Source: a virus
Lineage: Duplodnaviria > Caudoviricetes
Length of the DNA: 64,000 nt
IMG/VR virus record: IMGVR_UViG_3300025295_000098
Location: 14,600-78,599 of that record
Direction: 5' to 3' (one strand)
Shown here: in pieces, positions 5,233 through 19,332 of the stretch
Numbering within the stretch: position 1 is the stretch's first letter
How the letters are laid out: every line of letters starts with the position of its first letter
Notes under the pieces: generated by a model
What the model was told of the DNA's origin: nothing
The model's database searches: none
The model's input: only the letters and a program-made list of their open reading frames with translations
Made by a program: the position numbers and the translations under genes

Positions 5233-7374
5233 ATGCAGAATAGTGCGCCGTTGATCGTTGATAGCTTCGCAGGTGGCGGCGGTGCGTCGACCGGTATCGA
5301 GATGGCTCTTGGCCGCTCGCCCGACATCGCGATCAACCACAATGCTGATGCGCTGGCTCTTCACGCTGCCAACCATCCAGAAACGCTGCATCTTTCCGAG
5401 AATATCTTCAAGGTTGATCCTCTCGATCACGTCGCCGGCAAGCATGTCGGTCTCGCCTGGTTCTCTCCCGACTGCAAACACTTCTCGAAGGCCAAGGGCG
5501 GCAAACCAGTCGAGCGCAACATCCGAGATCTGGCCTGGATCATCGTCCTCTGGGCCGAGCGCGCGAAGCCTGACGTCATCATCATGGAGAACGTCGAGGA
5601 GTGGAAGGAATGGGGTCCGCTTATCGAAACCCCACGCGGGCTGATGCCTTGCCCTGACAGCCGGGGCCAGACCTTCAAGAAGTGGTGCAAGGCGATGAAG
5701 CGGGCTGGTTACAAGCTGCAGCATCGTGAGCTTCGCGCCTGCGATTATGGCGCGCCTACCATCCGCAAGCGGCTCTTCGTCGTCGCGCGTCGAGACGGCC
5801 AGCCGATCGTATGGCCGGAGCCGACCCATGGCGCGCCGACCGATCGCGATGTCATCGCCGGCAAGAAGCTTCCATGGCGCACGGCGGCCGAGATCATCGA
5901 CTGGTCGCTTCCTTGCCCATCGATCTTCGACACTTCAAACGAGATCATGGCGAAGTTCGGTCTCCGCGCGATCCGCCCTCTGGCTGACGCGACGATGGCC
6001 CGCGTTGCCCGCGGCACGAAGCGTTATGTTCTCGATTCAGCGCGGCCGTTTCTCGTCCAAACTGGCTATGGCGAGCGCCGAGGTCAGGATCCTCGGTGCT
6101 TGGATGGTGACGCTCCGCTCGGTACCGTCGTCGCCGGCGGGGTCAAGCATGCGGTCATCTCGCCTTCCGTTACGCGCTTCAACACCGGCGCGACCGGGAG
6201 CGCGATGGACGAGCCTGTTCCGACCGTCACTGCCAACAGCCATATCAAGAAGCCCGGCGGTGCTGCGCCTCTTGGGATGATCGCTCCGAGCCTGTCTGTC
6301 TTCTATGGTTCTGGCGCCGGCGGCAAGGATCGGTCTGCCAGCGCCGAAGAGCCGGTGAGGGTGGTCACGACCGAAAACCGCCATGCGGTGGTCGCGCCGC
6401 ACCTTATGACGATGCGGAATTCTGGCAAGCCGTTCAACGGTGCTGACGAGCCGACACATACGATCACCGCAGGCGGTGCTGGCCTGTCCGTCGTCGCGCC
6501 CGTGCTGACCTATGCCCAGCAGGGAGGTGCAAACCGCTCAGTCGAGGATCCACACCACACCATCACAGCCAGCAAGAAAGACCAGAACGCCGTCATCATC
6601 CCGACGCTGGTCGGATGCGGTGGCCGGGCAGGGCAGTCCCGTCCCCGCGGCGGCGACGAGCCGATGGCTACGGTTACCGCGAAGGCCGACGTCTGCACGG
6701 CCGCCGTCTTTGTCGCCCAGCACAACAACGACAGCCGTCGTATCGGCGGCGTCAATCCCGGCCGGGCGGCTGATGAGCCGATATCGACTGTAACCTCAAC
6801 CGGCGCGCAGCAAGGCCTTGTGTCCGCTTTCGTGTCGCGCCAGTTCGGTGTCGGTATCGGCCAGGGGGTCGATGAGCCGTCGGCCACGGTCACTGCGGGT
6901 GTGAACAAGTCGGCGCTCGTCGCTCCGCACCTGCATGCCTACTACGGGTCTGACCAGGACACGCCTGAAGATGAGCCGTTCCACACGCTGACGACGAAGC
7001 CGCGCTTCAGCCACGTCGAGGCTTCAATCAGCGCACCGCCTTTCACCGAAGACCAGCACTCACGGGCGCGCGAAGTAGCGGAATTCCTGCGATCCTATGG
7101 CTTCTGGGATGATCGCCAGTTTGTCACCCTGACCATCGGCGACGCCGAGTTCGTCATCGTCGACATCGGCATGCGCATGCTCACGCCGCGCGAGCTCTAC
7201 TCCGCTCAGGGTTTCCCGGTCGATTACAAGATCGACGCCGATGCCAACGGCAGACCTTTTCCGAAGAACGTCCAGGTCTCATGCGTCGGCAATTCCGTGT
7301 CGCCGCCCGTCGCCGCCGCGATCGTGGCCGCCAACTGCAATCACCTCATCGAATATCGCGAGGCGGCCGAATGA
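5233..7374 (+). CDS. C5-cytosine DNA methyltransferase with repeat-expanded variable region
   Basis: Motif I FAGGGG, motif IV SPDCKHFS, motif VI ENV, VIII RKRLF, IX RMLTPREL, X GNSVSPP. Confidence 0.95.
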   Translation: MQNSAPLIVDSFAGGGGASTGIEMALGRSPDIAINHNADALALHAANHPETLHLSENIFKVDPLDHVAGKHVGLAWFSPDCKHFSKAKGGKPVERNIRDLAWIIVLWAERAKPDVIIMENVEEWKEWGPLIETPRGLMPCPDSRGQTFKKWCKAMKRAGYKLQHRELRACDYGAPTIRKRLFVVARRDGQPIVWPEPTHGAPTDRDVIAGKKLPWRTAAEIIDWSLPCPSIFDTSNEIMAKFGLRAIRPLADATMARVARGTKRYVLDSARPFLVQTGYGERRGQDPRCLDGDAPLGTVVAGGVKHAVISPSVTRFNTGATGSAMDEPVPTVTANSHIKKPGGAAPLGMIAPSLSVFYGSGAGGKDRSASAEEPVRVVTTENRHAVVAPHLMTMRNSGKPFNGADEPTHTITAGGAGLSVVAPVLTYAQQGGANRSVEDPHHTITASKKDQNAVIIPTLVGCGGRAGQSRPRGGDEPMATVTAKADVCTAAVFVAQHNNDSRRIGGVNPGRAADEPISTVTSTGAQQGLVSAFVSRQFGVGIGQGVDEPSATVTAGVNKSALVAPHLHAYYGSDQDTPEDEPFHTLTTKPRFSHVEASISAPPFTEDQHSRAREVAEFLRSYGFWDDRQFVTLTIGDAEFVIVDIGMRMLTPRELYSAQGFPVDYKIDADANGRPFPKNVQVSCVGNSVSPPVAAAIVAANCNHLIEYREAAE
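6100..7020 (+). repeat. About nine 33-39 aa repeats (xxDEPxxTvTa...avv) inside the C5-MTase
   Basis: GDAPLGTVVA, MDEPVPTVTA, AEEPVRVVTT, ADEPTHTITA, VEDPHHTITA, GDEPMATVTA, ADEPISTVTS, VDEPSATVTA, EDEPFHTLTT. Confidence 0.85.
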
Positions 7375-7571
7375 CCCCTCCCGAAGAGATGATCGCCTGG
7401 CTCGATCGCCGCATCGCCTCCGCCATGACATGGCTCGACGACCACGGCAAAGGCTCTAAGCGTCCTCGTCCTCAGCACGAGATCGAAACGAAGGAATACG
7501 ACATCGCCCGCTTTGAAGAGATCAAGGCGGCGTATGTGAAGGCGCTTGAGCGGAAAGGGCAGGCTACATGA
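7371..7571 (+). CDS. Hypothetical phage protein
   Basis: ATGA-coupled 66-aa ORF MTPPEEMIAWLDRR. Confidence 0.65.
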   Translation: MTPPEEMIAWLDRRIASAMTWLDDHGKGSKRPRPQHEIETKEYDIARFEEIKAAYVKALERKGQAT

Positions 7572-8359
7572 GCCAGTCAAACCGGCAGATAAAATTCTAT
7601 GTCGGGCTTCACCAGCCGGCGGATGCCAAGCATTTCGATTTGGCCTGCATCAGCATCAATCGCCTGCGTCGGCGGAAGAAGAAGGTTCCGTGTGGCGATG
7701 TCCTAGTCGATAGCGGTGCCTTCACCGAACTTTCAAAGCACGGTGCTTATAGGCACTCGGTCGAGGAATATGCCGCTGAGCTTTATCGGCTCTATAGCAC
7801 GGGCGTTGTCCACATCGCCGCGGCGGTCGCTCAAGATTATATGTGTGAGCCCTTCATCCTGGCAAAGACTGGGATGACGATAGAAGATCATCAGCGGTTG
7901 ACGATCGAGCGCTACGACTGGCTGCTCGCCGAGTTGGGCCGGTTGTTCCATGGGAAGGTCCCATTCCACGTCATGCCCGTTCTTCAGGGTTTCGCGCCGC
8001 AGGACTATGCCAATCACGTCCGGATGTATGGCGATAGACTGAAGAACGGCATGTGGGTCGGCGTCGGTTCGGTCTGCAAGCGACAGGGAGATCCCCGGTC
8101 GATCATCGCCGTTCTGCAGTCGATCTATGCCGCCCGGCCTGATCTTGCTCTGCATGGCTTCGGCGTCAAGAAGACGTCACTGCTCCATCCTGGAGTTTGC
8201 GAATTGCTTTCCACCGCCGACAGCATGGCGTGGAGCTACGCAGCTCGCAAGCAGGACAGGGATTCCAATGATTGGCGCGAGGCGAAATCCTTCGTTGAGA
8301 CGATCCTCGACGCCGCCGGCCAGATTTTCAAGCCATGGCAGTTGGAGATGTTCGCATGA
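7568..8359 (+). CDS. tRNA-guanine transglycosylase-fold protein (DpdA-like deazaguanine DNA modification candidate)
   Basis: TGT motifs VLVDSGAF, QDYMCEP, PVLQG, GVGSVC, LHGFG, TADSMAW. Confidence 0.75.
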   Translation: MSQSNRQIKFYVGLHQPADAKHFDLACISINRLRRRKKKVPCGDVLVDSGAFTELSKHGAYRHSVEEYAAELYRLYSTGVVHIAAAVAQDYMCEPFILAKTGMTIEDHQRLTIERYDWLLAELGRLFHGKVPFHVMPVLQGFAPQDYANHVRMYGDRLKNGMWVGVGSVCKRQGDPRSIIAVLQSIYAARPDLALHGFGVKKTSLLHPGVCELLSTADSMAWSYAARKQDRDSNDWREAKSFVETILDAAGQIFKPWQLEMFA

Positions 8360-8511
8360 TCAGCGCGGCAGATATCGAGAAGGCTTTCAGCGAGCGCGTC
8401 CCGTACGCCATTGCGACCTATAGCGCGGACAGCAAGACCGCCAAGCGCGATCCGTCGAAGGCCGAGATCAAAGCGCGACTACTATCCCTGTTGGAGAGGG
8501 TGGCAGCATGA
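8356..8511 (+). CDS. Small hypothetical protein, 51 aa
   Basis: ATGA-coupled on both sides. Confidence 0.5.
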   Translation: MISAADIEKAFSERVPYAIATYSADSKTAKRDPSKAEIKARLLSLLERVAA

Positions 8512-9647
8512 TCGAAACCCGCTCCATCCTCGACGGCCGCTGCAAGATCTATGTCGGCGATTGCATCGAGGCTATGCGCTCTATGGCGGCGAACTCGATC
8601 GACTGTGTCGTTACGTCCCCGCCGTATTGGGGCCTTCGCGACTATGGCGTTGACGGCCAGATCGGCCTTGAACCAACGCTTGGCGAACACCTCGATGTGA
8701 TGGTCGCCGTCTTCCGCGAAATCCGCCGCGTCCTCAAGGCGCATGGCACGGTATGGATGAATTACGGCGATTGCTACGCCGCTCAGCCGAACGGGAAATC
8801 CGCGGCAGCATATAAGGCCGACGGCAGTGACGATCGGACGTTCCGGGATAAGCCGTTCTCGACCGTCGGGCCCATCTACGACCCAAACCATTCGAAAGCG
8901 AGAGGCGCCTTCTCGTCTGGCGATCGTCAGTCCCACATAGAGAGCGGCGGCCGAGTTGTCGCCGGCGGATTCATGAAGCCCAAGGATCTATGCATGATCC
9001 CGAACAGGCTCGCCATCGCTCTTCAAGATGATGGCTGGTGGGTCCGGTCCGAGATCATCTGGAACAAGACCAATCCTAAGCCCGAGTCGATCGACGATCG
9101 GCCTGCCGCCGTTCATGAGAAGATTTTTCTGCTCACCAAAAGCGAGCGGTATTTCTTCGACGCTGAATCGCTGAAGGAGCCGACGACCGGCAACGCTCAT
9201 GCTCGCCGCAGAGATGGTCAGTACAAGCCGGCCAAGGGCAGCACAGCAGGACAGAATAGGGAGGGAACGTGGGTTGAGACCTATGTCCCGGATCTCCGCA
9301 ATGGCCGGAACGTCTGGACCTTCAATATCGAGGGTTACCGCGGAGCCCACTTCGCCACATTCCCACGTGAACTAGCCCGTCGCTGCATCTTGGCTGGAAC
9401 ACCGAAGACGGTCTGTGGCTGCTGCGGCGCTGCTGAGGGCTGTGGCCCGATCTGCGAAACGTTCGAGCGTCTTCCCGGCGTAGTGCTTGATCCCTTTGGT
9501 GGCTCTGGAACAGTCGCGGTGGTTGCGGAGCAGTATGGCTATCGAAGCGCGTTGATCGAGCTGAAGCCAGAATATGCCGACATCGCGGAGCGCCGCATCA
9601 CCGGCGCGCCTGCCATCTCGCTCGAGAACGAAGAGGAGGCAGCATGA
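8508..9647 (+). CDS. Beta-class amino-DNA methyltransferase (SPPY, probably m4C)
   Basis: VTSPPYWGLRDY near N-terminus, VLDPFGGSGT near C-terminus. Confidence 0.93.
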   Translation: MIETRSILDGRCKIYVGDCIEAMRSMAANSIDCVVTSPPYWGLRDYGVDGQIGLEPTLGEHLDVMVAVFREIRRVLKAHGTVWMNYGDCYAAQPNGKSAAAYKADGSDDRTFRDKPFSTVGPIYDPNHSKARGAFSSGDRQSHIESGGRVVAGGFMKPKDLCMIPNRLAIALQDDGWWVRSEIIWNKTNPKPESIDDRPAAVHEKIFLLTKSERYFFDAESLKEPTTGNAHARRRDGQYKPAKGSTAGQNREGTWVETYVPDLRNGRNVWTFNIEGYRGAHFATFPRELARRCILAGTPKTVCGCCGAAEGCGPICETFERLPGVVLDPFGGSGTVAVVAEQYGYRSALIELKPEYADIAERRITGAPAISLENEEEAA

Positions 9648-9799
9648 CCTTCCTCGAAGCCTACGGCATCCACGGCCCAGACGTTGAGCGCATCGCCGAA
9701 GCCCTCGGCATCACGCCACCAGAGGCTGATCGCCTCATCAACGAAGCAATGGAGCGTCGGCACCAGCAGCGCGTCCGGCGCAGTTTGAGGCGCGCATGA
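9644..9799 (+). CDS. Small hypothetical protein, 51 aa
   Basis: ATGA-coupled on both sides, GAGGAGG RBS. Confidence 0.55.
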   Translation: MTFLEAYGIHGPDVERIAEALGITPPEADRLINEAMERRHQQRVRRSLRRA

Positions 9800-10674
9800 C
9801 AAACCCGTACAAAATCGATGGCCCAGCGCTGATCTCCTTCTCCGGCGGACGCACCTCGGCGTACATGCTCTATCAGATCCTGCAGGCGCATGGTGGCGTC
9901 CTCCCTGATGATGTTGTCGTCTGCTTTGCCAACACCGGCAAGGAGCGTGAGGAAACGCTTCGCTTCGTGCATGAGTGTGGCAGCAGGTGGAACGTCAGGA
10001 TCAACTGGCTGGAATTCCGCCTTGGAAAGCCAGGGTTTGAGGAAGTCGGCTTCAACAGCGCCTCCCGTGAGGGAGAACCTTTCGAGCAGCTGATCGCATG
10101 GAAGCAGCGCCTTCCGAACGGCCATGAGCGCTGGTGCACGTCATTCCTTAAGGTGCTGCCGATGTTTGCCAAGATGCGCGATAAGCTCGGGCTTGAGCCT
10201 GGGCAGTATCTCGAATGCATCGGGCTTCGGGATGACGAAGGTCTCCGGATATTCAACGCGATGGCGCAGGGTGAAAAATACGGCCGCCGTATTTTTCACC
10301 CTCTCGCCAAGGCAAAGGTTCGCAAACCGGACATTTGGAAATTCTGGCTTGGCGATAATCGCGATCCGAAGAGCCTTGTCCACCCATTGCCACAGGGCTT
10401 CGATCTCGGTCTCTATCCTTGGGAGGGAAATTGCGACCTCTGCTTCCAAAAGGGCAAAGGCATTCGCAAGCGGTATATCCGCGAAAACCCGAAGTCGCCG
10501 CATTGGTGGTCTCGTCAGGAGGTCACGCAAAATGGATGGTTCGACAAGCGCGACACGGTCGCCGAACTTATGGAGCAGGTCTGGTTTTCACCGAGCTTCT
10601 TCGACGCCGAATCCGACGATGACATGGAATACGATGTCGAGTGCGGCCTTCACTGCTCGGGAGAAGCCGCATGA
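9796..10674 (+). CDS. PAPS-reductase family (PP-loop adenine nucleotide alpha-hydrolase) protein
   Basis: ISFSGGRTSAYM PP-loop, FANTGKE, CT..LK, NCDLCF. Confidence 0.85.
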   Translation: MTNPYKIDGPALISFSGGRTSAYMLYQILQAHGGVLPDDVVVCFANTGKEREETLRFVHECGSRWNVRINWLEFRLGKPGFEEVGFNSASREGEPFEQLIAWKQRLPNGHERWCTSFLKVLPMFAKMRDKLGLEPGQYLECIGLRDDEGLRIFNAMAQGEKYGRRIFHPLAKAKVRKPDIWKFWLGDNRDPKSLVHPLPQGFDLGLYPWEGNCDLCFQKGKGIRKRYIRENPKSPHWWSRQEVTQNGWFDKRDTVAELMEQVWFSPSFFDAESDDDMEYDVECGLHCSGEAA

Positions 10675-11791: not shown

Positions 11792-12330
11792 ACGTCCTAG
11801 CAAGAGATATCCGAGCCAAGCTCATGAACCCGCCGGTGAAGATCACCCGCGAACAGGTCATGGATCTGCAACAGCGCAACCGCAATCTAGCGGCCAAAAT
11901 CATCATGCTCGAAGAGGCAAACAAGGCCAAACAGGAGGTGATCGATACCCTCCTCACAGACCTTCGAAGCGAGCGAGATTTCACAAAATCGCTCGAGTTA
12001 CGGATGCGGGCGATGGATGAGGACGAATCCGGATCAGTCGATGACAAGCCGTCGATCAAGAGCATCGTCCGCGAAGAGCTGAAGGATTGGCCAGGCGTCA
12101 CCTGGGCGCAGGTCAAGGGCGGCCGTAAGCCCTGGCATGTTGTGCAGGCTCGGCGGCAGTGCTTGCAGGCTGTTTATCAGAAGCGCCCTGATCTGACGCT
12201 GCAGGAGATCGGCCGCATCTTCAACAAGGACCATTCTACTGTCTGCTATGCCGTCTATCAGGGCAACCAAGTCCTCAAGAAAATGGAGCTCAATCGGCAG
12301 CGGAAAGCCGCTGAGCGAGGTGAAGTATGA
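11788..12330 (+). CDS. DnaA C-terminal-like HTH protein
   Basis: VQARRQC...LTLQEIGRIFNKDHSTVCYAV matches DnaA domain IV. Confidence 0.75.
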   Translation: MNVLARDIRAKLMNPPVKITREQVMDLQQRNRNLAAKIIMLEEANKAKQEVIDTLLTDLRSERDFTKSLELRMRAMDEDESGSVDDKPSIKSIVREELKDWPGVTWAQVKGGRKPWHVVQARRQCLQAVYQKRPDLTLQEIGRIFNKDHSTVCYAVYQGNQVLKKMELNRQRKAAERGEV

Positions 12331-12818
12331 GCAGGAGACCTCGCCTCTATCTCGATCTCGACGGTGTCATGGCCGACTTCGATGCTCACTTCCCGGCCCT
12401 ATTCGGCGTGGACCACCGGAATATGCTCGACGATGATATGTGGGCTAAGATCAACGGGCACCCGAGCTACTTCCGGGATATGCCTCAGTGCCCTGGCGCG
12501 AAAGAGTTCTTCGACCGCATATCATGGCTTAAGCCGATCATCCTTACGGCCTGCCCGAAATCGAACTATGCGCACGTCGCCCGCCAGAAGCGGGAATGGG
12601 TGAGGGAGCACCTGTCATCCACCTGCCACATCCTGCCGGTCATGGGCGGCCGGAACAAGCCGCTCTTCATGCATTCGCCCGGCGACATCCTCGTCGACGA
12701 CTTCGAGCGAAACATCAAGGCTTGGCGCGAGGAAGGCGGGTTCGGGATCCTGCACACTGACTTCACATCGTCCAGAGATGCGATCGAACGCGAAATGGTT
12801 AGGAGTGCTGCGGCATGA
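12327..12818 (+). CDS. HAD-family 5'(3')-deoxyribonucleotidase-like protein
   Basis: LYLDLDGVMADF, ILTACP, DILVDD motifs. Confidence 0.85.
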   Translation: MSRRPRLYLDLDGVMADFDAHFPALFGVDHRNMLDDDMWAKINGHPSYFRDMPQCPGAKEFFDRISWLKPIILTACPKSNYAHVARQKREWVREHLSSTCHILPVMGGRNKPLFMHSPGDILVDDFERNIKAWREEGGFGILHTDFTSSRDAIEREMVRSAAA

Positions 12819-13279
12819 CCCGTCTAGCTCGCGTCGACATGGATGCCGTCGCTCCGCTCTATCCTAGCGACAAGGTCGCCGGCCGGGTAGCGGCAAGGGG
12901 AGAGCATTTCGATTGGCAGCCAAACCAGGCCACCAAGGTCCATTCGTCTGATCCGCTTGCCGTCCGTCGCCCTACGGAAAACGAACTGTCGAGGCCTGAA
13001 TACACGGATCTGACGGGCGCTAAGATCGGCCGGCTGACCGTGGTGGGCGTTGCAGCGGAGATAATAGGCAACGGCCAGAAGTGGGTAGTGCGCTGCGTCT
13101 GCGGATCATACGAGACCCGCAAGGCCAGGTACATCAAGGCCTGTGTCGCCGGCAACAATCCGGGAAGCAGCGATCCGATGTGCGACGCGTGCGGCTATAC
13201 CCGGAAGCTTCAGCTTGGCTACCACAACCCCAAAAAGGCGGCCGCGGCGGCGCAAGCGATCATGGAGGCGGCTCGATGA
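12815..13279 (+). CDS. Hypothetical protein with DLTG..GRLTV / CxCG motif
   Basis: Motif typical of N-termini of HNH/AP2 phage proteins; extra CxxC. Confidence 0.65.
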   Translation: MTRLARVDMDAVAPLYPSDKVAGRVAARGEHFDWQPNQATKVHSSDPLAVRRPTENELSRPEYTDLTGAKIGRLTVVGVAAEIIGNGQKWVVRCVCGSYETRKARYIKACVAGNNPGSSDPMCDACGYTRKLQLGYHNPKKAAAAAQAIMEAAR

Positions 13280-13788
13280 GCGATCTTCTCATGACGAGAC
13301 GCGTCGTGTTCTCGGATTGTGGCCTTTACCGCTATCTCCTTGAGCACGACTTCGGCGGGACCGGTCCGGTTATCTCGATCGGGATGGTCAACCCATCCAG
13401 CGCGGATGAGGAAAAGAACGATCCTACCATGACGAAGATCGACGGCTTCGCCGCGCACCTCGGCGCCAGCAAGGTGAAGGTCTGGAACAAGTGCGCGTTG
13501 CGCAACAAGGACGTGAAGGCGCTCCGCGCGGCAGCTGACCCGATCGGGCCGGAAAATGACGCCTACATCGAGCAGGCGATCCGCGATGCAGATATTCACA
13601 TCGTCGCATGGGGACCGCTTGCCAAGCTTCCGCGACCTCTCCGCAACCGATGGCGCGATGTCGTGGATGTCATGACCCGCGCTGGCTGCCGGCCGATGTG
13701 CTGGGGCACTGCCGGCGACGGGCAGCCGCGCCACCCGCTGATGGTCGCCTACGCCACGCCCCTAGGCCCATGGGAGGCGCCACGGTGA
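13276..13788 (+). CDS. DUF1643-family protein
   Basis: FSDCGLYRY.L, IGMVNPSSADEEKNDPT, AWG, PRHPL. Confidence 0.85.
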   Translation: MSDLLMTRRVVFSDCGLYRYLLEHDFGGTGPVISIGMVNPSSADEEKNDPTMTKIDGFAAHLGASKVKVWNKCALRNKDVKALRAAADPIGPENDAYIEQAIRDADIHIVAWGPLAKLPRPLRNRWRDVVDVMTRAGCRPMCWGTAGDGQPRHPLMVAYATPLGPWEAPR

Positions 13789-14006
13789 CAGACATTCCCG
13801 TCGACGAAATCAAGATCGAGGTCTGGCCCATCTCCGGCATTCACGAACGAGGCGGCCAGCATGTTGGAACCTGCCCGGGTGTGCGCATTACGCATCTTCC
13901 GAGCGGCATCCATGCTTACGTCGATATCGGCCGATCCCAACACATCAACAAGACCATCGCAATGGACATGATCCTCGCGGCGATCACTCATCCGAAATTC
14001 CGATAA
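13785..14006 (+). CDS. Stand-alone class-1 release factor GGQ (peptidyl-tRNA hydrolase) domain, 73 aa
   Basis: GTG start after GGAGG; EIKIEVW..SG..RGGQHV...GVRITHLPSGI......RSQHINK.IAM.MI aligns with RF1/RF2 domain 3. Confidence 0.8.
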   Translation: MTDIPVDEIKIEVWPISGIHERGGQHVGTCPGVRITHLPSGIHAYVDIGRSQHINKTIAMDMILAAITHPKFR

Positions 14007-14031
14007 TCCGAGCGGCGGCTCATGAGAGGAA

Positions 14032-14724
14032 ATGAAAATGGCGGCACTGGCATTGCAAGAGCAGGACACACGAGATTTCGCTGATATAGTCGCGCAACGG
14101 CGGAAGCGGCTTATCGGCCGAGATTGGTACGCGATCCGGACTGCCCCCGGCACACAGCGAATGGCCCGACATGTCGAAGACGCTCCGATCCATCGTATCG
14201 GAGAGAGCATCATCGAGCGCAATCTCCGCAACGAGGGGATCAGCGTCTACATGCCGGCGTATTGGTACGAGGGCATTCACCACCGCAACCGGAAGGTCAT
14301 CCAGCGTCGTCTGCCGCTGTTGGTCGGATATGCGTTCGTGAACCTCGAAAACCTGAATTTCGAGAGGGTGCGCGACGTCGACGGCGTGGTGTGTTTCCTC
14401 CGGTCCGAGTTCGGTCCGCTCCGGTTCAGTGGAGACGATCTTGCCGTCATCGCTGCCGAAGAGTTGACGCGGCGTCAGGAGTTCCGGCGCGAACGGATCA
14501 CCCGAATCCAAAATGAAACCGCCGGACAGGCCATGCAGCTCCGCGGCAATCTCCGCAAGATCCTGCCGAAGGGCAGGGGCAATCGCATCAACCTCAAGGA
14601 TCAAGCTCTCCTCACCATCAAGGACTTGAAACCGGAGATGCAGAGCAAAGTCATGGGGATGTTGCTCCAATTGGAGCAGTTAGAGGCATATGAGGGGCTT
14701 GAAACCATAGATCGTGTTGCGTAA
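14032..14724 (+). CDS. NusG-family (NGN) transcription antiterminator
   Basis: WYAIRTAPG, VYMP, RLPLLVGYAFV, VRDVDGVVCFL; no KOW domain recognisable. Confidence 0.85.
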   Translation: MKMAALALQEQDTRDFADIVAQRRKRLIGRDWYAIRTAPGTQRMARHVEDAPIHRIGESIIERNLRNEGISVYMPAYWYEGIHHRNRKVIQRRLPLLVGYAFVNLENLNFERVRDVDGVVCFLRSEFGPLRFSGDDLAVIAAEELTRRQEFRRERITRIQNETAGQAMQLRGNLRKILPKGRGNRINLKDQALLTIKDLKPEMQSKVMGMLLQLEQLEAYEGLETIDRVA

Positions 14725-14727
14725 TAT
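14699..14727 (+). promoter_or_regulatory. Candidate late promoter
   Basis: TTGAAA-N17-TAATAT overlapping the antiterminator stop codon. Confidence 0.6.
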
Positions 14728-14818
14728 CGTCAGTGATTTGCGGTGTTCTGTTCGCGGACCCATCTGATGGGGAATACCCTGCCGGCCGCTTGTCTCTCAA
14801 AAGCATCACTTATGCTCA

Positions 14819-15631
14819 TTGGAGAAATGCGCCTTGGCGTTCATCGTTGATGGTGTAGCCCACATCCCTCTTCAGAAATCGAAAGGCCGCAAGCGGATGT
14901 TTGCGCTTATCGACGAGGAGGATTACGACCGCGTGTCTCGTTTAAAGTGGTACGCGGTCGCTTCGGGGAAGACCTTTTACGCTAGAGCCACCAGCGGTAT
15001 CCTGTCGGCCCATCTGTATGGGATGCATTCCTATGTCATGCGGGCCCAAAAAGGGCAGCGCGTAGACCACGAAAACGGGAACGGCCTCGACAACCGGAAG
15101 GCCAATCTCCGCAAAGCCACGCCCGCCCAAAACACGTGGAATTCCTTCAAGCGCAGCGACCCGTGCAGTTCGAAGTTCAAAGGCGTCATCCTCACGAGTT
15201 CGGGGAAATGGGCAGCATCCATCACTCGAAACGGTGATCATCAGGTAATCGGGCTGTTTGACGATGAAGCCGAAGCAGCCCGCGCCTATGATGAAAAGGC
15301 GTTAGTGCTGTTCGGCGAGTTCGCTAAGACCAATGACGCCATGGGCTTATTCGAGAGCGATCAGGCAAGCCGGGTCACGGCATCGGACATGATGTTTGAC
15401 CCGCGATCGATCGGCGATTTCAAAGCGGCGACGCCCGGCCAAATTTTCGACGGCAATGAAAACGTTGGAGACCGCGCTGCCGTCGGGATCGTGATCGGCC
15501 TTTGCAAGCACCCTCGCACGCGTCAAACCATGTATCGGCTCGATACAGGCGCCAAGGTGCATATGGATGCTTACATGGGTCGGCATCCATCAATCGAGGA
15601 AATGGCTCTCTTTCGCGCCAGCCAAAATTGA
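14819..15631 (+). CDS. HNH endonuclease with AP2 domain
   Basis: VDHENGNGLDNRKANLR; SKFKGV...KWAASI...IGLFDDEAEAARAYD; start uncertain. Confidence 0.88.
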   Translation: MEKCALAFIVDGVAHIPLQKSKGRKRMFALIDEEDYDRVSRLKWYAVASGKTFYARATSGILSAHLYGMHSYVMRAQKGQRVDHENGNGLDNRKANLRKATPAQNTWNSFKRSDPCSSKFKGVILTSSGKWAASITRNGDHQVIGLFDDEAEAARAYDEKALVLFGEFAKTNDAMGLFESDQASRVTASDMMFDPRSIGDFKAATPGQIFDGNENVGDRAAVGIVIGLCKHPRTRQTMYRLDTGAKVHMDAYMGRHPSIEEMALFRASQN

Positions 15632-15640
15632 ATTGTTTCA

Positions 15641-15718
15641 TGTCGGAGTAGAGCAGCCCGGTAGCTCGCTTGGCTCATAACCAAGAGGCCGCAGGTTCGA
15701 ATCCTGCCTCCGCAACCA
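15641..15718 (+). tRNA. tRNA-Met(CAT), initiator-like, with irregular acceptor stem
   Basis: D arm GAGC/GCTC, anticodon arm CTTGG-CTCATAA-CCAAG, T arm GCAGG-TTCGAAT-CCTGC, ends ACCA; extra T in 5' acceptor strand. Confidence 0.85.
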
Positions 15719-15959
15719 GTTCCCAGAGGGGCCAAACGAACAAGCTGATGAGTTCAGCCACTGTCGTGGAGACGGTGCGATGTGTTCGGGCCCCGCATCC
15801 CCAGAAGCCGTTCGCCGGATAGTCCACGTAACCGGAAAGAAGGATTGCGGACCAGCCAGCCGCCATCCGAGGCACCAGAGCACCCAAGCCCGCCGTAAGC
15901 TCTCGGGGCGCAAACGAGAGGCGGAGGTCTGCAAGCCTCCACAGCCAATCACGCCCGTC

Positions 15960-15994
15960 GCCCGCTTAGCCGCGGTTGGCGGGTTTTCCATTTT
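15960..15994 (+). terminator. Possible intrinsic terminator
   Basis: CCCGC...GCGGG followed by TTTTCCATTTT. Confidence 0.45.
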
Positions 15995-16009
15995 CTGAGA
16001 GGCTCTCCA

Positions 16010-16450
16010 ATGTCAGACGAGCATATGTGCCCGCGCCGCGCCGAAGGGCCGACTTTCACCTCTGGGCCTGACACCTGGCGTGAGGACGGATCGTGCTCAT
16101 ACTGCGGCAGCCTGAATCCCGATACCCTCATGGCGCGCCTTGAGGCTGGTGATGTAAGGCTTGACCCGACGGATAAGACCTACAAGGTCTATTGCGAGAA
16201 CGCCGGCGGTGAGCAGTTCAAACAGACCTATCGCAATTGCCCAAGCGATGCGAATTGCAAGGGGCCTGACGATTGCTCCCACTGGGTGACGCGGGAGCGT
16301 AGCGGCACAAAGTTCTATTTCCAGCATTTGAGCGAAGACCAGAGAAAGCGGTTCGTCGACCTTCTCAACGCGAAAAAAGTCATGCTCGGCTACCCTGGAT
16401 ACTTCTACGTCCCGCCGTTCTTTATTCAGTTCAAGGCGCCGGCGGCGTGA
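16010..16450 (+). CDS. Hypothetical Cys-rich phage protein
   Basis: GAGG RBS; CSYCGS motif. Confidence 0.75.
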   Translation: MSDEHMCPRRAEGPTFTSGPDTWREDGSCSYCGSLNPDTLMARLEAGDVRLDPTDKTYKVYCENAGGEQFKQTYRNCPSDANCKGPDDCSHWVTRERSGTKFYFQHLSEDQRKRFVDLLNAKKVMLGYPGYFYVPPFFIQFKAPAA

Positions 16451-16505
16451 TCCTCTGGCGATCCCCATCCGCCTTCGCGATCGATAATCATCAAGGACGA
16501 TAGAG

Positions 16506-16925
16506 ATGGTTTGGTTTGTTCAGCCGCTGGAGCGCAAAGACAAAGACGGCAAGCCGTCCGGTCTGTGGCATCTCTGCGCGCAAAGCGACGAGGGCGGCGG
16601 CTTCTACACCGGCTGCAACCATGATCATGCTTCTGCCGAAGAAGCGCAGGACTGCATCGAGGCCAAGGTGCGCCTCGGCCAGGTGACGGGGTTTCCCTAT
16701 GTGGCCTCGAAAATCAAGGTCAACGGCATTGAGTTCGAGGTCCATGGCGACATGATCAGCCATGAGCAGATCTGCGCACTCGCCGGCAAGCCAGTCCACG
16801 CCTCGGCCACCTATCTCGGTCCCCGAAAGGGCGACAGCGAGAGAAGCGGCATCACCCATGTCGGAAAGTCCGTCAAGCTCGAAGACGGCATGAGCTTCAC
16901 CTGCGTCGTGACGGGCAACGCATGA
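16506..16925 (+). CDS. Protein with C-terminal multi-ubiquitin-like (beta-grasp) domain
   Basis: KIKVNGIEFEV..DMISHEQICALAG...SVKLEDGMSFTCVVT pattern. Confidence 0.6.
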   Translation: MVWFVQPLERKDKDGKPSGLWHLCAQSDEGGGFYTGCNHDHASAEEAQDCIEAKVRLGQVTGFPYVASKIKVNGIEFEVHGDMISHEQICALAGKPVHASATYLGPRKGDSERSGITHVGKSVKLEDGMSFTCVVTGNA

Positions 16926-17056
16926 TCATCCCCCGCTACATCCAGCGCGCCGCTTTCGTCGTCGCAATCGTTCTATTCTGCCTCGTAGGGCTGTTCGCCA
17001 TGTCGGGGTGCCAGACGTATCAGCCGCCGGGCCAGGATCTGTGGCGGGCGCTATAA
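16922..17056 (+). CDS. Small lipoprotein candidate, 44 aa
   Basis: Basic N-term, hydrophobic stretch, lipobox-like AMSG-C; ATGA-coupled. Confidence 0.55.
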   Translation: MIIPRYIQRAAFVVAIVLFCLVGLFAMSGCQTYQPPGQDLWRAL

Positions 17057-17057
17057 C

Positions 17058-17273
17058 TCATCGTTCCTCGGGAGTGCGCAACCGGCGGGTTGAAAACGAT
17101 CCGCTACTCCGACGCTCTTCGACAAACTTTCTACATCCGTCATGCGGGCAATAGACCAACTCGACGTCAACAAAGCCGGGCTGGCCCTCGTATTCCAAGC
17201 ACTCGAACTCCTGACCGCAATGAGGGCAGGTCACGACTTCGGAATGGGTATTATCTTGGCCTTGCAGAAACAT
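17058..17273 (-). CDS. Small zinc-finger protein (antisense to late operon)
   Basis: CPHC...CPHDGC. Confidence 0.55.
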   Translation of the reverse strand: MFLQGQDNTHSEVVTCPHCGQEFECLEYEGQPGFVDVELVYCPHDGCRKFVEERRSSGSFSTRRLRTPEER

Positions 17274-17296
17274 TATTTTCTCCCGTGTGTGACCCT

Positions 17297-17908
17297 ATGC
17301 CAGTCCTGAAAAACCCCCGGCATGAGAAGTTTGCCCAAGCTCTCGCCAAAGGCAATACAGCAGATGACGCATATGCCGCCGCTGGCTTCAAACCTGACCG
17401 TGGAAATGCCTCTCGCCTACAGCATAAAGACAACATCGTACAACGCGTGTCCGAGCTTTTGGAGTGGGAGCAGACGGTAGAGCGAAAGGCCACCGAAAAG
17501 GCCATCGAGAAGCTGGCCATCACCAAAGAGCGCGTCCTGGCCGAACTTGCCAAGATCGGGTTCTCTGACATCCGCAAGGCCATCAAGTGGCAGGGCACGC
17601 TTGTAACCGAGGAAGACAATCCGGACGGCGGTGATGTCCTCGTGATCAAAAATGTCGTCACGAACAATGTCCAGCTTGTATCGAGCGACGAGATCGACGA
17701 CGAGACGGCCGGCGCGATCGCTGAGATCAGCCAGAACTCGACCGGCGGCATTAAGTTGAAACTTCACGACAAGAAGGGTGCGCTCGTGGACATCGGCAAG
17801 CACCTTGGCATGTTCGTGGAGCGGCACGAGCATACAGGCAAGGACGGCGCACCGATCCAGACCGAGACGAGAACATGGCGGGAAGTGCTGCGCAGCGAGA
17901 AGAGCTAG
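17297..17908 (+). CDS. terS: Terminase small subunit
   Basis: LKNPRHEKFAQALAKG..A..AY.AAGF; ITKERVLAELAKIGF; KLHDKKGAL.DIGKHLGMF. Confidence 0.9.
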   Translation: MPVLKNPRHEKFAQALAKGNTADDAYAAAGFKPDRGNASRLQHKDNIVQRVSELLEWEQTVERKATEKAIEKLAITKERVLAELAKIGFSDIRKAIKWQGTLVTEEDNPDGGDVLVIKNVVTNNVQLVSSDEIDDETAGAIAEISQNSTGGIKLKLHDKKGALVDIGKHLGMFVERHEHTGKDGAPIQTETRTWREVLRSEKS

Positions 17909-19332
17909 ACGCCACCACATATCTCACCAACCCGGCTCTTCATGATTTTTGGGAGCAGGTTTTCCTCGGTCAGGCGGACATCGCGGTTCTTCACGGCGGC
18001 CGCTCAAGCTCAAAGACGCGAGACACGGCCTGCCAGTTGGTTCGGTTGGTCGACCATGTCGGCGTCAGGATGCGGGTGCTTTGCATCCGTCGTTTCCAGA
18101 ACCGTATCCAGGATTCGGTTTACACGGAACTGAAATGGGCGATCGCTCATCTCGGTCTCACGGACCAATACGACATTCAAAAGACCACCATCATCCACAA
18201 GGTGACGGGGTCGGAGTTCATCTTCTACGGCATCGAGCGAAACCTTGAGGATATCAAGGGAACGTCCGACGTCGATATTCTCTGGGTCGAAGAGGCGGAA
18301 AAGCTAACCGAAGACCAATGGACGGTGATCGGGCCGACGATCCGTAAGGAAGACAGCCTAGCGATCCTGCTGTTCAACCCGAAGCTCGTCACCGACTACG
18401 TCTGGAAGAACTTCGTCATCAATGTTCCGCCGCATTGCGTGGTTCGGAAGATCGATTACACCGAGAACCCGTTCCTTTCGCAGAAAGCGCTGCGCGACAT
18501 TGCTGCCATGCGGGAGCGCAACCCGGAGACCTTTGAGCACGTCTACGGCGGTATTCCTCTCGGGGATAGCGAGCTTTCTATCTTCAAGCGCCGCTGGCTT
18601 GATGCTTGCATAGACGCTCATGTGACGCTGAACGTCGGCCTCACGGGTCGGAATATCATCGGTTTCGACCCTGCCGACGATGGCGAGGACAAATGCGCCA
18701 CGGCCGATAAGGTCGGCGGCATCTTCACCGAGGTCGACGACTGGGCGTCCGGCAAGGACGAACTTGTCCAGAACGCCAAGAAGGTATGGGCCAAGGCGAA
18801 GGCCGTCGGCGCAACGGTGTCATACGATACGATCGGCGTCGGTGCCTTTGTCGGCGGCTATATCGATGAGCAGAACCGGGAAAACCGGGCGCGTGTCAAC
18901 CACTACGCTTTTCATGCCGGCGGCGCGGTTCTCGACCCAGACAAGGCGAGCGACCCGTACAACAGCAAAAGCCCGCTGAACAAAGACGAATACCTGAACC
19001 GCAAGGCGCAGGCCTGGGCCAATACCGCACGACGGGCGATGCTGACCTTCAATGCCGTCACCAGGGGGCAACCCATCAGGGCTGAGGATGTTCTTTCGTT
19101 CTCGTCTGGGATCGGGACCGCAAAGCTCGATGCTCTTTTCACGGAACTCTGCGTGCCGTGGTGGGTAGAGAGTGAGGGAAAGAAGCGGGTTGTTCCCAAG
19201 GTGAAGCTGAAAAAAGACCTGGGCGTGAAGTCACATAACTTGGCGGACGCCGTCATTGCCGCTGACAACGTTCAGCTATCGCGTGTCCTGGTCATTAGCG
19301 ACACGGTACTGCAGCGATCAACATCGAGGTAG
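17875..19332 (+). CDS. terL: Terminase large subunit (PBSX-like, probably headful)
   Basis: Walker A HGGRSSSKT, Walker B ILWVEEA, nuclease GFDPAD. Confidence 0.95.
   Translation: MAGSAAQREELDATTYLTNPALHDFWEQVFLGQADIAVLHGGRSSSKTRDTACQLVRLVDHVGVRMRVLCIRRFQNRIQDSVYTELKWAIAHLGLTDQYDIQKTTIIHKVTGSEFIFYGIERNLEDIKGTSDVDILWVEEAEKLTEDQWTVIGPTIRKEDSLAILLFNPKLVTDYVWKNFVINVPPHCVVRKIDYTENPFLSQKALRDIAAMRERNPETFEHVYGGIPLGDSELSIFKRRWLDACIDAHVTLNVGLTGRNIIGFDPADDGEDKCATADKVGGIFTEVDDWASGKDELVQNAKKVWAKAKAVGATVSYDTIGVGAFVGGYIDEQNRENRARVNHYAFHAGGAVLDPDKASDPYNSKSPLNKDEYLNRKAQAWANTARRAMLTFNAVTRGQPIRAEDVLSFSSGIGTAKLDALFTELCVPWWVESEGKKRVVPKVKLKKDLGVKSHNLADAVIAADNVQLSRVLVISDTVLQRSTSR

What the first reader, a model, noticed from the sequence alone, without database searches (positions are those of the whole stretch)
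13785..14006. Phage-encoded 73-aa minimal release-factor GGQ domain
Seen: DEIKIEVWPISGIHERGGQHVGTCPGVRITHLPSGIHAYVDIGRSQHINKTIAMDMI follows RF domain 3 (..LRID....SG.GGQHVN....AVRITHLPTGI......RSQH.NK..AM..L) closely. It has its own RBS and GTG start, which the ORF track misplaces. It has no stop-codon-reading domain and no ArfB-type basic C-terminal tail. Known: GGQ hydrolyses peptidyl-tRNA in the ribosomal PTC. Inference: a new kind of phage translation effector, such as codon-independent ribosome rescue or sabotage, a decoy for PrmC or RF-targeting defences, or a partner of another phage protein. It sits just before the late antiterminator and 1.6 kb from a phage tRNA-Met.
Basis: partly seen in the sequence, partly recalled or inferred. 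Interest (0 to 1): 0.82.

Follow-up and report, generated by a model that had tools for sequence, protein, structure and literature searches.

The report
Phage mini release-factor GGQ domain
A prophage of a Rhizobium-like bacterium encodes a conserved 73-residue protein that is only the peptide-releasing GGQ domain of a bacterial release factor. It belongs to a widespread phage family that databases name but, as far as I could find, nobody has studied, and how such a bare domain reaches the ribosome is unknown.

Summary
Window 13785-14006 (+) is a real 73-aa gene with a GTG start, a GGGAGG ribosome-binding site 7 nt upstream, and a GTGA overlap with the stop of the upstream DUF1643 gene. It matches Pfam RF-1 above the curated cut-off, and its model matches RF1/RF2/PrfH domain 3.

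It is not a fragment. At least 81 clusters of 68-77 aa exist, at 56-93% identity to this protein. GGQ is invariant in 36 aligned homologues and kept in 176 of 183 distinct mini sequences. Median dN/dS is 0.31. The minis form one clade (100/100) apart from RF1/RF2/PrfH.

It lacks the codon-reading domains and the ArfB tail, and it has lost several basic residues of the RF helix. It ends in a family-specific THPxFR motif. Neighbours vary across 51 loci, and no known rescue partner travels with it.

The best reading (0.4) is a codon-independent hydrolase of peptidyl-tRNA at the peptidyl-transferase centre, made in the delayed-early phase. Its target and any adaptor are unknown.

The family already carries database names (PHROG 20323; NCBI "peptide chain release factor-like protein"), and this scan has met such mini domains before on other phage DNA. 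I found no functional study. "A new kind of effector" is therefore only partly right.

The parts
13772..13777 (+). Ribosome-binding site GGGAGG, 7 nt upstream of the GTG start
   Evidence: Read directly from the sequence
13785..14006 (+). Mini-GGQ gene: 73 aa plus stop. The GTG start overlaps the stop of the upstream gene (GTGA).
   Evidence: Pfam RF-1 at 37.7 bits against a cut-off of 35. Homologues start at the same place. AF2 model with pLDDT 84: three strands and one helix.
13851..13859 (+). Codons of Gly23-Gly24-Gln25, the GGQ motif
   Evidence: Invariant in 36 aligned homologues and kept in 176 of 183 distinct mini sequences
13932..13949 (+). Codons of R50-S51-Q52-H53-I54-N55, the RSQ..N loop between the last strand and the helix
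   Evidence: Conserved in both the minis and RF1/RF2. PMC3950681 places catalytic-site residues in the GGQ loop and in this loop.
13983..14003 (+). C-terminal family-specific motif I-T-H-P-K-F-R, which ends the truncated helix
   Evidence: T68, H69 and P70 are invariant in A1. The motif is absent from RF1/RF2.
13276..13788 (+). Upstream DUF1643 gene. Its likely ATG at 13276 overlaps the previous stop, and its own stop overlaps the mini-GGQ start.
   Evidence: Pfam DUF1643 at E 2.5e-29 and PHROG 3230; start context
14032..14724 (+). NusG-like late antiterminator, 25 nt downstream of the mini-GGQ stop
   Evidence: Pfam NusG; PHROG 25909 'transcription antiterminator' at E 2.3e-57
15642..15718 (+). 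Phage tRNA-Met (CAT). This is context only; it is not shown to belong to the system.
   Evidence: ARAGORN; Rfam tRNA at 57.7 bits

Best explanation
The gene encodes a self-contained GGQ 'head': strand, GGQ loop, beta-hairpin, and the first 17 residues of the long RF helix. It keeps every motif that builds the release-factor catalytic site.

I infer that it is made from the delayed-early operon of the induced prophage. It would enter the large-subunit A-site cleft and insert GGQ into the peptidyl-transferase centre. There it would trigger hydrolysis of P-site peptidyl-tRNA without reading any codon.

Because it has no 30S-binding part, it cannot sense a stop codon or an empty mRNA channel. Its targets must then be one of two things. 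One is ribosomes, or split 50S-peptidyl-tRNA complexes, whose A site stays empty for long. The other is complexes marked by an adaptor not yet identified.

The likely benefit to the phage is recycling of ribosomes and tRNAs that stall during infection, for example after host or defence nucleases cut mRNA or tRNA.

Shown: fold, motifs, conservation, operon position, and absence of a fixed partner. Inferred: ribosome binding, hydrolysis, target choice and benefit to the phage.
For: - **Fold and motifs.** It matches the RF-1 domain above the Pfam cut-off. The AF2 model (pLDDT 84) superposes on domain 3 of ribosome-bound RF1/RF2 and PrfH (Foldseek E 5e-5, TM 0.65-0.72; VIA-align Z 7.2-8.2).
- **Conservation.** GGQ is invariant in 36 homologues down to 54% identity and kept in 96% of 183 minis. 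GGQHV, GV(R/K).TH.P(S/T)G, RSQH.N(K/R) and A59 are shared with RF1/RF2. [quoted passage not shown]
- **Selection.** Median dN/dS is 0.31, and the length is constant at 68-77 aa across 81 clusters.
- **Own lineage.** The minis form a single clade (100/100) separate from RF1/RF2/PrfH, so they are not recent truncations.
- **Operon position.** The gene is translationally coupled inside the rightward early operon, between the replication genes and the antiterminator. No + strand terminator was found, apart from one weak site inside the antiterminator gene.
- **Established knowledge.** The GGQ motif acts only inside the ribosomal peptidyl-transferase centre. A GGQ factor works on split large subunits in mitochondria (mtRF-R with MTRES1; PDB 7a5h; review PMC8012679).
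Against: - **No anchor.** ArfB loses hydrolysis and ribosome binding when tail residues are mutated or the last 10 residues are removed (PMC3950681).
- **Loss of positive charge.** The minis have replaced basic residues that are conserved in RF domain 3: R15 to P, K58 to I, R/K61 to D, R/K64 to L/E, and R66 to A. They are near neutral (median pI 8.0; this protein pI 7.0, net charge 0), against pI 9.4 and +3 for the same stretch of RFs. This argues against strong unaided rRNA binding.
- **GGQ is sometimes lost.** Seven of 183 minis lack GGQ (GGM, GQQ, SPQ and others).
- **The hosts are already equipped.** They carry prfA, prfB and an ArfB-like gene.
- **No direct data.** There is no expression, binding or activity evidence.
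Confidence: 0.4

Rival explanations
1. Non-catalytic mimic. The domain binds something that recognises the GGQ domain, without releasing peptides. Candidates are the glutamine methyltransferase PrmC (a sponge that leaves host RFs under-methylated), the A site of the peptidyl-transferase centre (a blocker), or a host factor or defence that targets RFs.
For: - RF1 domain 3 is the part seen in complex with PrmC (PDB 2b3t is among the structural matches).
- The minis lost the basic helix face and gained a hydrophobic helix plus the THPxFR end, which looks like a protein-binding surface.
- A few close relatives carry GGM or similar in place of GGQ. Earlier notes of this scan describe whole sister families with that change.
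Against: - Conservation is not limited to the GGQ loop. The RSQ..N loop and the TH.P(S/T)G strand, which build the catalytic site in RFs, are equally conserved.
- GGQ is kept in 96% of members.
- A neutral protein would also fit the PrmC surface less well. That point is my own recollection that the RF-PrmC interface is electrostatic; I did not test it here.
Confidence: 0.2
2. Catalytic half of a two-part factor. A second phage or host protein would deliver it to the ribosome, as ArfA or BrfA recruit RF2, or as MTRES1 works with mtRF-R.
For: - The lack of any anchor and the near-neutral charge.
- The conserved C-terminal THPxFR could be a docking motif.
- There is precedent in mtRF-R with MTRES1 on split large subunits.
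Against: - No gene family accompanies it. Among 51 dereplicated loci the commonest neighbour family is in 12, and the +1 gene is an antiterminator in only 8 of 33.
- In 31 carrier phage genomes (17 at least 90% complete) there is no S4-domain gene and no Pth, and RtcB occurs in only 2.
- Rare longer forms carry no recognisable added domain.
- A host-encoded adaptor is not excluded.
Confidence: 0.15
3. Prophage-encoded toxin or exclusion factor. It would shut down translation by premature peptide release, to block superinfecting phages or to arrest the host.
For: An ungated GGQ factor would be expected to be harmful to translation. This is inference only.
Against: - It lies inside the lytic early operon, coupled to its neighbours, and not in a lysogeny-expressed moron position.
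- It has no match in PADLOC.
- Similar mini domains occur in virulent phages such as Acinetobacter phage 133.
Confidence: 0.07
4. Decaying remnant of a captured prfA or prfB gene, with no function.
For: It covers only positions 6-70 of the 116-position Pfam model.
Against: - Constant length across 81 clusters.
- Invariant motifs.
- Median dN/dS of 0.31.
- Its own RBS and start.
- A monophyletic family with its own C-terminal motif.
Confidence: 0.02

Closest known systems
[quoted passage not shown]
   Same: - Same fold (Foldseek TM 0.65-0.72; VIA-align Z 7.2-8.2).
- Same motifs: GGQHV, GV(R/K).TH.P(S/T)G and RSQH.N(K/R).
- Most minis have the same GGQ-loop length. This protein's clade has 3 extra residues before GGQ.
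   Different: - No domain 1 and no domains 2/4 (PCRF, with the PxT/SPF codon readers).
- The helix is cut after about 17 residues and ends in THPxFR.
- N28 of the RF motif GGQHVN is G.
- Five conserved basic residues are replaced, giving net charge of about 0.
ArfB (YaeJ) / ICT1 codon-independent rescue factors
   Same: A GGQ domain without a codon-reading domain, so it is codon-independent in principle.
   Different: - ArfB has an inserted helix in the GGQ domain, a linker, and a basic C-terminal tail that binds the empty mRNA channel and is required for activity (PMC3950681).
- The mini has none of these.
- The NCBIfam ArfB model does not match it at E <= 0.1.
- The mini profile does not match the hosts' ArfB-like proteins even at E 10.
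PrfH (RFH), the release factor paired with RtcB2 for damaged ribosomes
   Same: - A mobile, conflict-associated short RF.
- Its domain 3 is as close as that of RF1/RF2 (NCBIfam 40.2 bits; Z 7.7).
- Alphaproteobacterial PrfH were among the best non-mini hits.
   Different: - PrfH is about 200 aa and keeps a decoding-type domain.
- The mini scores 40 against the PrfH cut-off of 167.
- RtcB is present in only 2 of 31 carrier phage genomes.
mtRF-R (C12orf65) with MTRES1 on split mitoribosomal large subunits
   Same: A GGQ domain without a decoding function that acts on a large subunit carrying peptidyl-tRNA. Structural match at Z 6.7-6.8 (2rsm, 7a5h).
   Different: - mtRF-R has a C-terminal extension and needs the S4-like partner MTRES1 (PMC8012679).
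- No S4-domain gene occurs in 31 carrier phages.
- Sequence identity is about 20%.
Phage RF-1-domain mini proteins in databases (PHROG 20323 'RF-1 domain peptide chain release factor'; NCBI 'peptide chain release factor-like protein'; BFVD entries of 64-136 aa)
   Same: Same size and architecture, and the same viral setting. The NCBI-named 73-aa proteins of Rhizobium are 82-90% identical to this one.
   Different: - These are names only; I found no functional study.
- The match to PHROG 20323 is modest (31 bits), so the alphaproteobacterial THPxFR group is a distinct branch.

Membership tests
Pfam RF-1 domain (PF00472) | Score at or above the gathering cut-off | tested here: met
   37.7 bits against a cut-off of 35, E 2.2e-9; covers only profile positions 6-70 of 116
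Pfam RF-1 domain (PF00472) | GGQ motif in the loop after the first strand | tested here: met
   G23-G24-Q25, invariant in alignment A1
Class I release factor RF1/RF2 | Codon-reading superdomain (PCRF, with PxT or SPF) and the N-terminal domain | tested here: not met
   73 aa with no PCRF hit; prfA 42 bits against 423 and prfB 41 against 370
ArfB / ICT1 | Basic C-terminal tail of about 40 residues after a linker | tested here: not met
   The protein ends 5 residues after the helix. The hosts' ArfB-like proteins show the tail.
ArfB / ICT1 | Match to the ArfB family model, including the helix inserted in the GGQ domain | tested here: not met
   No NF006718 hit at E <= 0.1. The mini profile does not hit the hosts' ArfB-like proteins at E 10. 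The model has no inserted helix.
PrfH | Equivalog model score | tested here: not met
   TIGR03072 at 40.2 bits against a cut-off of 166.65
PrfH | Operon with RtcB | tested here: not met
   No RtcB in this provirus's neighbourhood. RtcB is in 2 of 31 carrier records.
mtRF-R / MTRES1-type large-subunit rescue | S4-like partner protein | tested here: not met
   No PF01479 match in 31 carrier phage records. A host Hsp15-type partner was not tested.
Phage mini-GGQ family (alphaproteobacterial THPxFR branch) | 68-77 aa, GGQ, RSQ..N, and a C-terminal (A/L)(I/L)THPxFR | tested here: met
   Alignment A1. It lies inside the mini clade, which has 100/100 support.
PHROG 20323 | Profile match | tested here: inconclusive
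   E 3.5e-7, 31 bits, profile positions 6-57 of 73. PHROGs has no curated cut-off.
Any active GGQ factor | Ribosome binding and GGQ-dependent peptidyl-tRNA hydrolysis | not testable with these tools
   Needs biochemistry

The most novel reading that the evidence does not exclude
The bare GGQ head is a release factor for substrates that need no 30S sensing. These would be 50S subunits still carrying peptidyl-tRNA, or 70S ribosomes idling with an empty A site after defence nucleases deplete tRNA or cut mRNA. It might be docked through its THPxFR end by a host factor such as Hsp15. That would make it a phage-borne bacterial counterpart of mitochondrial mtRF-R/MTRES1, and a new class of counter-defence that keeps the translation apparatus running.
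Probability: 0.15. Interest if true: 0.8.

Novelty: new variant of a known kind. Interest (0 to 1): 0.55.

Why it matters
Every characterised GGQ factor couples the catalytic domain to something that tells it when to fire:
- RF1/RF2 use a codon reader.
- ArfB uses a tail in the mRNA channel.
- PrfH uses a decoding-type domain.
- mtRF-R uses MTRES1.

A conserved family that keeps only the catalytic head raises two questions. What is the minimum needed for peptide release? How is an ungated release factor kept from wrecking translation?

If it is active, it would show a translation function that temperate phages bring with them. It would also be a compact tool for codon-independent release. If it is a mimic, it would point to a host process centred on the GGQ domain that phages manipulate.

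The family is large and mostly viral, so the answer would apply to many phages.

Tried and rejected
- **tblastn against 50,697 phage records** gave only matches below 60% identity, mostly full-length RFs or unannotated fragments. No cultured close relative turned up.
- **Fusion search.** Longer relatives (108-190 aa) carry no extra Pfam domain. The 400-480 aa hits are ordinary RFs.
- **PADLOC.** No match for the mini or for four neighbouring proteins.
- **Rfam.** Only the tRNA was found in 12000-18000.
- **Known rescue partners in 31 carrier genomes.** S4 domain 0, Pth 0, RtcB 2.
- **tRNA linkage.** Only 11 of 48 loci have a tRNA nearby, in the usual post-antiterminator slot. I rejected it as a defining link.
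- **Tree.** The sister group of the minis among RF1/RF2/PrfH could not be resolved with 72 columns.
- **Literature.** Eight full-text searches found no study of phage GGQ-only proteins. The survey of release-factor diversity in PMC6514570 lists RF1/2, ArfB and PrfH only.
- **Pseudogene reading.** Rejected on conservation.

Full report
**1. The observation**

Window 13785-14006 (+) reads as a 73-residue ORF.
- The GTG start is preceded by GGGAGG at a 7-nt spacing and overlaps the TGA stop of the upstream gene (GTGA).
- The mechanical ORF list starts at ATG 13608 instead, which runs out of frame across the upstream gene.
- The protein passes the Pfam RF-1 cut-off (37.7 bits against 35), but only over profile positions 6-70 of 116.
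- NCBIfam prfA, prfB and prfH models match this stretch alone, at 40-42 bits and far below their cut-offs. The ArfB model does not match.
- Solved-structure sequence hits are RF1/RF2 domain 3.

**2. Context**

The window belongs to a 78.6-kb IMG/VR provirus record. The layout is lambdoid. In order it holds:
- a cI-like repressor on the minus strand (596-1426);
- a rightward operon with two large DNA methyltransferases, DpdA, a PAPS-reductase-like gene, RusA, a replication initiator, a DnaA-C-like protein, NT5C and DUF1643;
- the mini-GGQ gene;
- a NusG-like antiterminator (PHROG 25909, E 2e-57);
- an HNH-AP2 protein and tRNA-Met;
- small and large terminase and portal.

The genes at 12815, 13276 and 13785 start on 4-nt overlaps with the preceding stops. 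No + strand terminator-like site lies between 10.5 and 14.7 kb, apart from a weak one inside the antiterminator gene. The mini-GGQ gene is therefore part of the delayed-early transcript, in the position of the lambda nin region.

**3. It is a family, not a fragment**

- A search of 5.8 billion proteins gave 81 clusters of 68-77 aa (a few longer calls) at 56-93% identity. Those with a source name come from Rhizobium, Neorhizobium and Brucella and are called 'peptide chain release factor-like protein'.
- In 36 aligned members GGQ is invariant, and so is a C-terminal T-H-P within ...AAITHPxFR.
- A profile search of 1.84 billion representatives put about 70 further clusters of 65-95 aa at the top, ahead of ordinary release factors.
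- The ESM Atlas lists clusters of 61-75 aa RF-1 proteins that are 59-82% viral.
- BFVD holds phage proteins of 64-136 aa with this fold, from phages of Acinetobacter, Pseudomonas, Aeromonas, Mycobacterium, Rhodococcus and Cellulophaga.
- Of 183 distinct mini sequences, 176 keep GGQ.
- Median pairwise dN/dS over 51 loci is 0.31.
- In a tree of the GGQ-domain region the 51 minis form one clade (100/100), separated by a long branch from RF1, RF2 and PrfH. The sister group is unresolved.
- Five host genomes each carry prfA, prfB and an ArfB-like gene besides the prophage mini. The mini profile does not match those ArfB-like proteins even at E 10.
- The family is therefore an old, selected offshoot of the RF1/RF2/PrfH type of domain 3, not of ArfB.

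**4. Anatomy**

The AF2 model (pLDDT 84) has strands at 9-13, 33-37 and 43-46 and a helix at 52-68. The GGQ loop is the least confident part. It superposes on domain 3 of ribosome-bound RF1/RF2 (Foldseek E 5e-5, TM 0.65-0.72; VIA-align Z 7.2-8.2), on PrfH (Z 7.7) and on mtRF-R/C12orf65 (Z 6.7-6.8).

A column-by-column comparison with 39 RF1/RF2 segments shows:
- **Shared:** GGQHV, GV(R/K).TH.P(S/T)G, RSQH.N(K/R) and A59.
- **Mini-specific changes:** R15 to P, N28 to G, K58 to I, R/K61 to D, R/K64 to L/E, R66 to A, and the THPxFR end.
- **Charge:** the minis are near neutral (median pI 8.0; this one pI 7.0, net charge 0). The same stretch of RFs has pI 9.4 and net charge +3.
- **Loop length:** this protein's clade has a 3-residue insertion before GGQ, while most minis have the RF loop length.

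**5. Neighbourhood**

In 51 dereplicated loci (viral contigs, GTDB genomes and assemblies) the neighbours vary.
- The commonest family within five genes occurs in 12 loci.
- The downstream gene is a NusG-like antiterminator in 8 of 33 same-strand cases. Elsewhere it is a DNA polymerase or exonuclease, a resolvase, an ATPase or an unknown.
- Many loci show 4-nt overlaps with unrelated upstream genes.
- A tRNA lies within about 1.7 kb downstream in 11 of 48 loci.
- In 31 carrier records (17 at least 90% complete) there is no S4-domain gene and no Pth, and RtcB occurs in two.
- There is no PADLOC match.
- The gene therefore behaves as a self-contained accessory module of the early-to-late boundary, with no phage partner that I could detect.

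**6. Mechanism**

Established knowledge says the GGQ motif works only inside the peptidyl-transferase centre. The joint conservation of the GGQ loop and the RSQ loop is the signature of a retained catalytic site; these are the two places where catalytic-site residues of GGQ domains lie (PMC3950681).

I therefore favour a codon-independent peptidyl-tRNA hydrolysis factor (0.4). The difficulty is access:
- ArfB without a working tail neither binds ribosomes nor hydrolyses.
- The minis have shed positive charge.

This leaves three options:
- very weak, time-gated access to A sites that stay empty;
- action on split 50S-peptidyl-tRNA, where no 30S anchor is possible, as with mtRF-R/MTRES1;
- a host adaptor.

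A non-catalytic mimic, such as a PrmC sponge or an A-site blocker, remains a serious rival (0.2). The hydrophobic helix, the THPxFR end and the occasional GGM-type relatives favour it.

**7. Comparison with the literature and novelty**

- The survey of release-factor diversity in PMC6514570 lists RF1/2, ArfB and PrfH among the bacterial forms and no GGQ-only form.
- Genome papers mention phage 'peptide chain release factor' genes only in passing (PMC3483164, PMC10484667).
- One paper notes an RF-1-domain hypothetical gene as a core gene of tRNA arrays in mycobacteria (PMC5966550).
- Eight full-text searches found no functional study.
- Earlier notes of this scan report the same kind of mini domain in other phages, some with GGQ replaced. 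Those notes are unchecked leads, but they agree with what I saw.
- I rate this a new variant of a known kind: a GGQ factor stripped of every targeting element, catalogued but unexplained.

**8. Limits**

There is no expression, binding or activity evidence.

Noticed in passing
window 15642-15718; also L009:7188-7264, L091:7033-7109, L100:6890-6966, L120:7051-7127: The phage tRNA-Met looks initiator-like. Its 3' end is CGCAACCA and positions 1 and 72 are unpaired (G1/A72 and also T2/C71 here; a classical C1/A72 in L100). The anticodon stem has only two G:C pairs. It recurs in the same slot, after the antiterminator, in 5 of 48 mini-GGQ loci.
   Followed up: partly
L102:7078-7151: ARAGORN calls a tRNA with anticodon CTA (amber-suppressor type, labelled Pyl) 0.85 kb downstream of a mini-GGQ gene whose own stop is TAG. 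Stop-codon use in that locus otherwise looks ordinary (mostly TGA). The call may be a false positive.
   Followed up: partly
L132:5992-6219 and G035:C1:10807-11916; G032:C1:33985-35094: Two carrier records encode RtcB. In L132 the mini has KGM in place of GGQ and RtcB lies about 3.2 kb downstream on the same strand, which recalls the PrfH-RtcB pairing. In G032 the RtcB gene is about 17 kb away.
   Followed up: no
window 5233-7374, 7568-8359, 8508-9647, 9796-10674: The early operon carries two large DNA methyltransferases, a DpdA homologue (7-deazaguanine in DNA; Pfam E 3e-43) and a PAPS-reductase-like gene. This is probably a DNA-modification, anti-restriction block.
   Followed up: no
window 12815, 13276, 13785: Three successive genes start on 4-nt ATGA/GTGA overlaps with the preceding stop, forming a chain of translational coupling through the nin-like region. 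In other loci the mini-GGQ gene shows the same 4-nt overlap with unrelated upstream genes.
   Followed up: partly
window 14819-15631: An HNH plus AP2-domain protein (weak Pfam hits) sits between the antiterminator and the tRNA. It is probably a homing-type endonuclease.
   Followed up: no
window 16506-16925: A 139-aa ORF has a sub-threshold Multiubiquitin hit (23.4 bits against a cut-off of 24.5). The adjacent 146-aa ORF (16010-16450) has no family match.
   Followed up: no
L012 (CAYNGK010000104.1, 2.5 kb): A mini-GGQ gene of the alphaproteobacterial type sits on a short contig binned into a Methanosarcinales MAG. This is most likely a binning contaminant rather than an archaeal occurrence.
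   Followed up: no
L006:4320-4646: In one phage an Acb2/Tad1-type anti-CBASS/Thoeris sponge gene lies two genes upstream of the mini-GGQ gene, so the gene can sit in a counter-defence neighbourhood.
   Followed up: no
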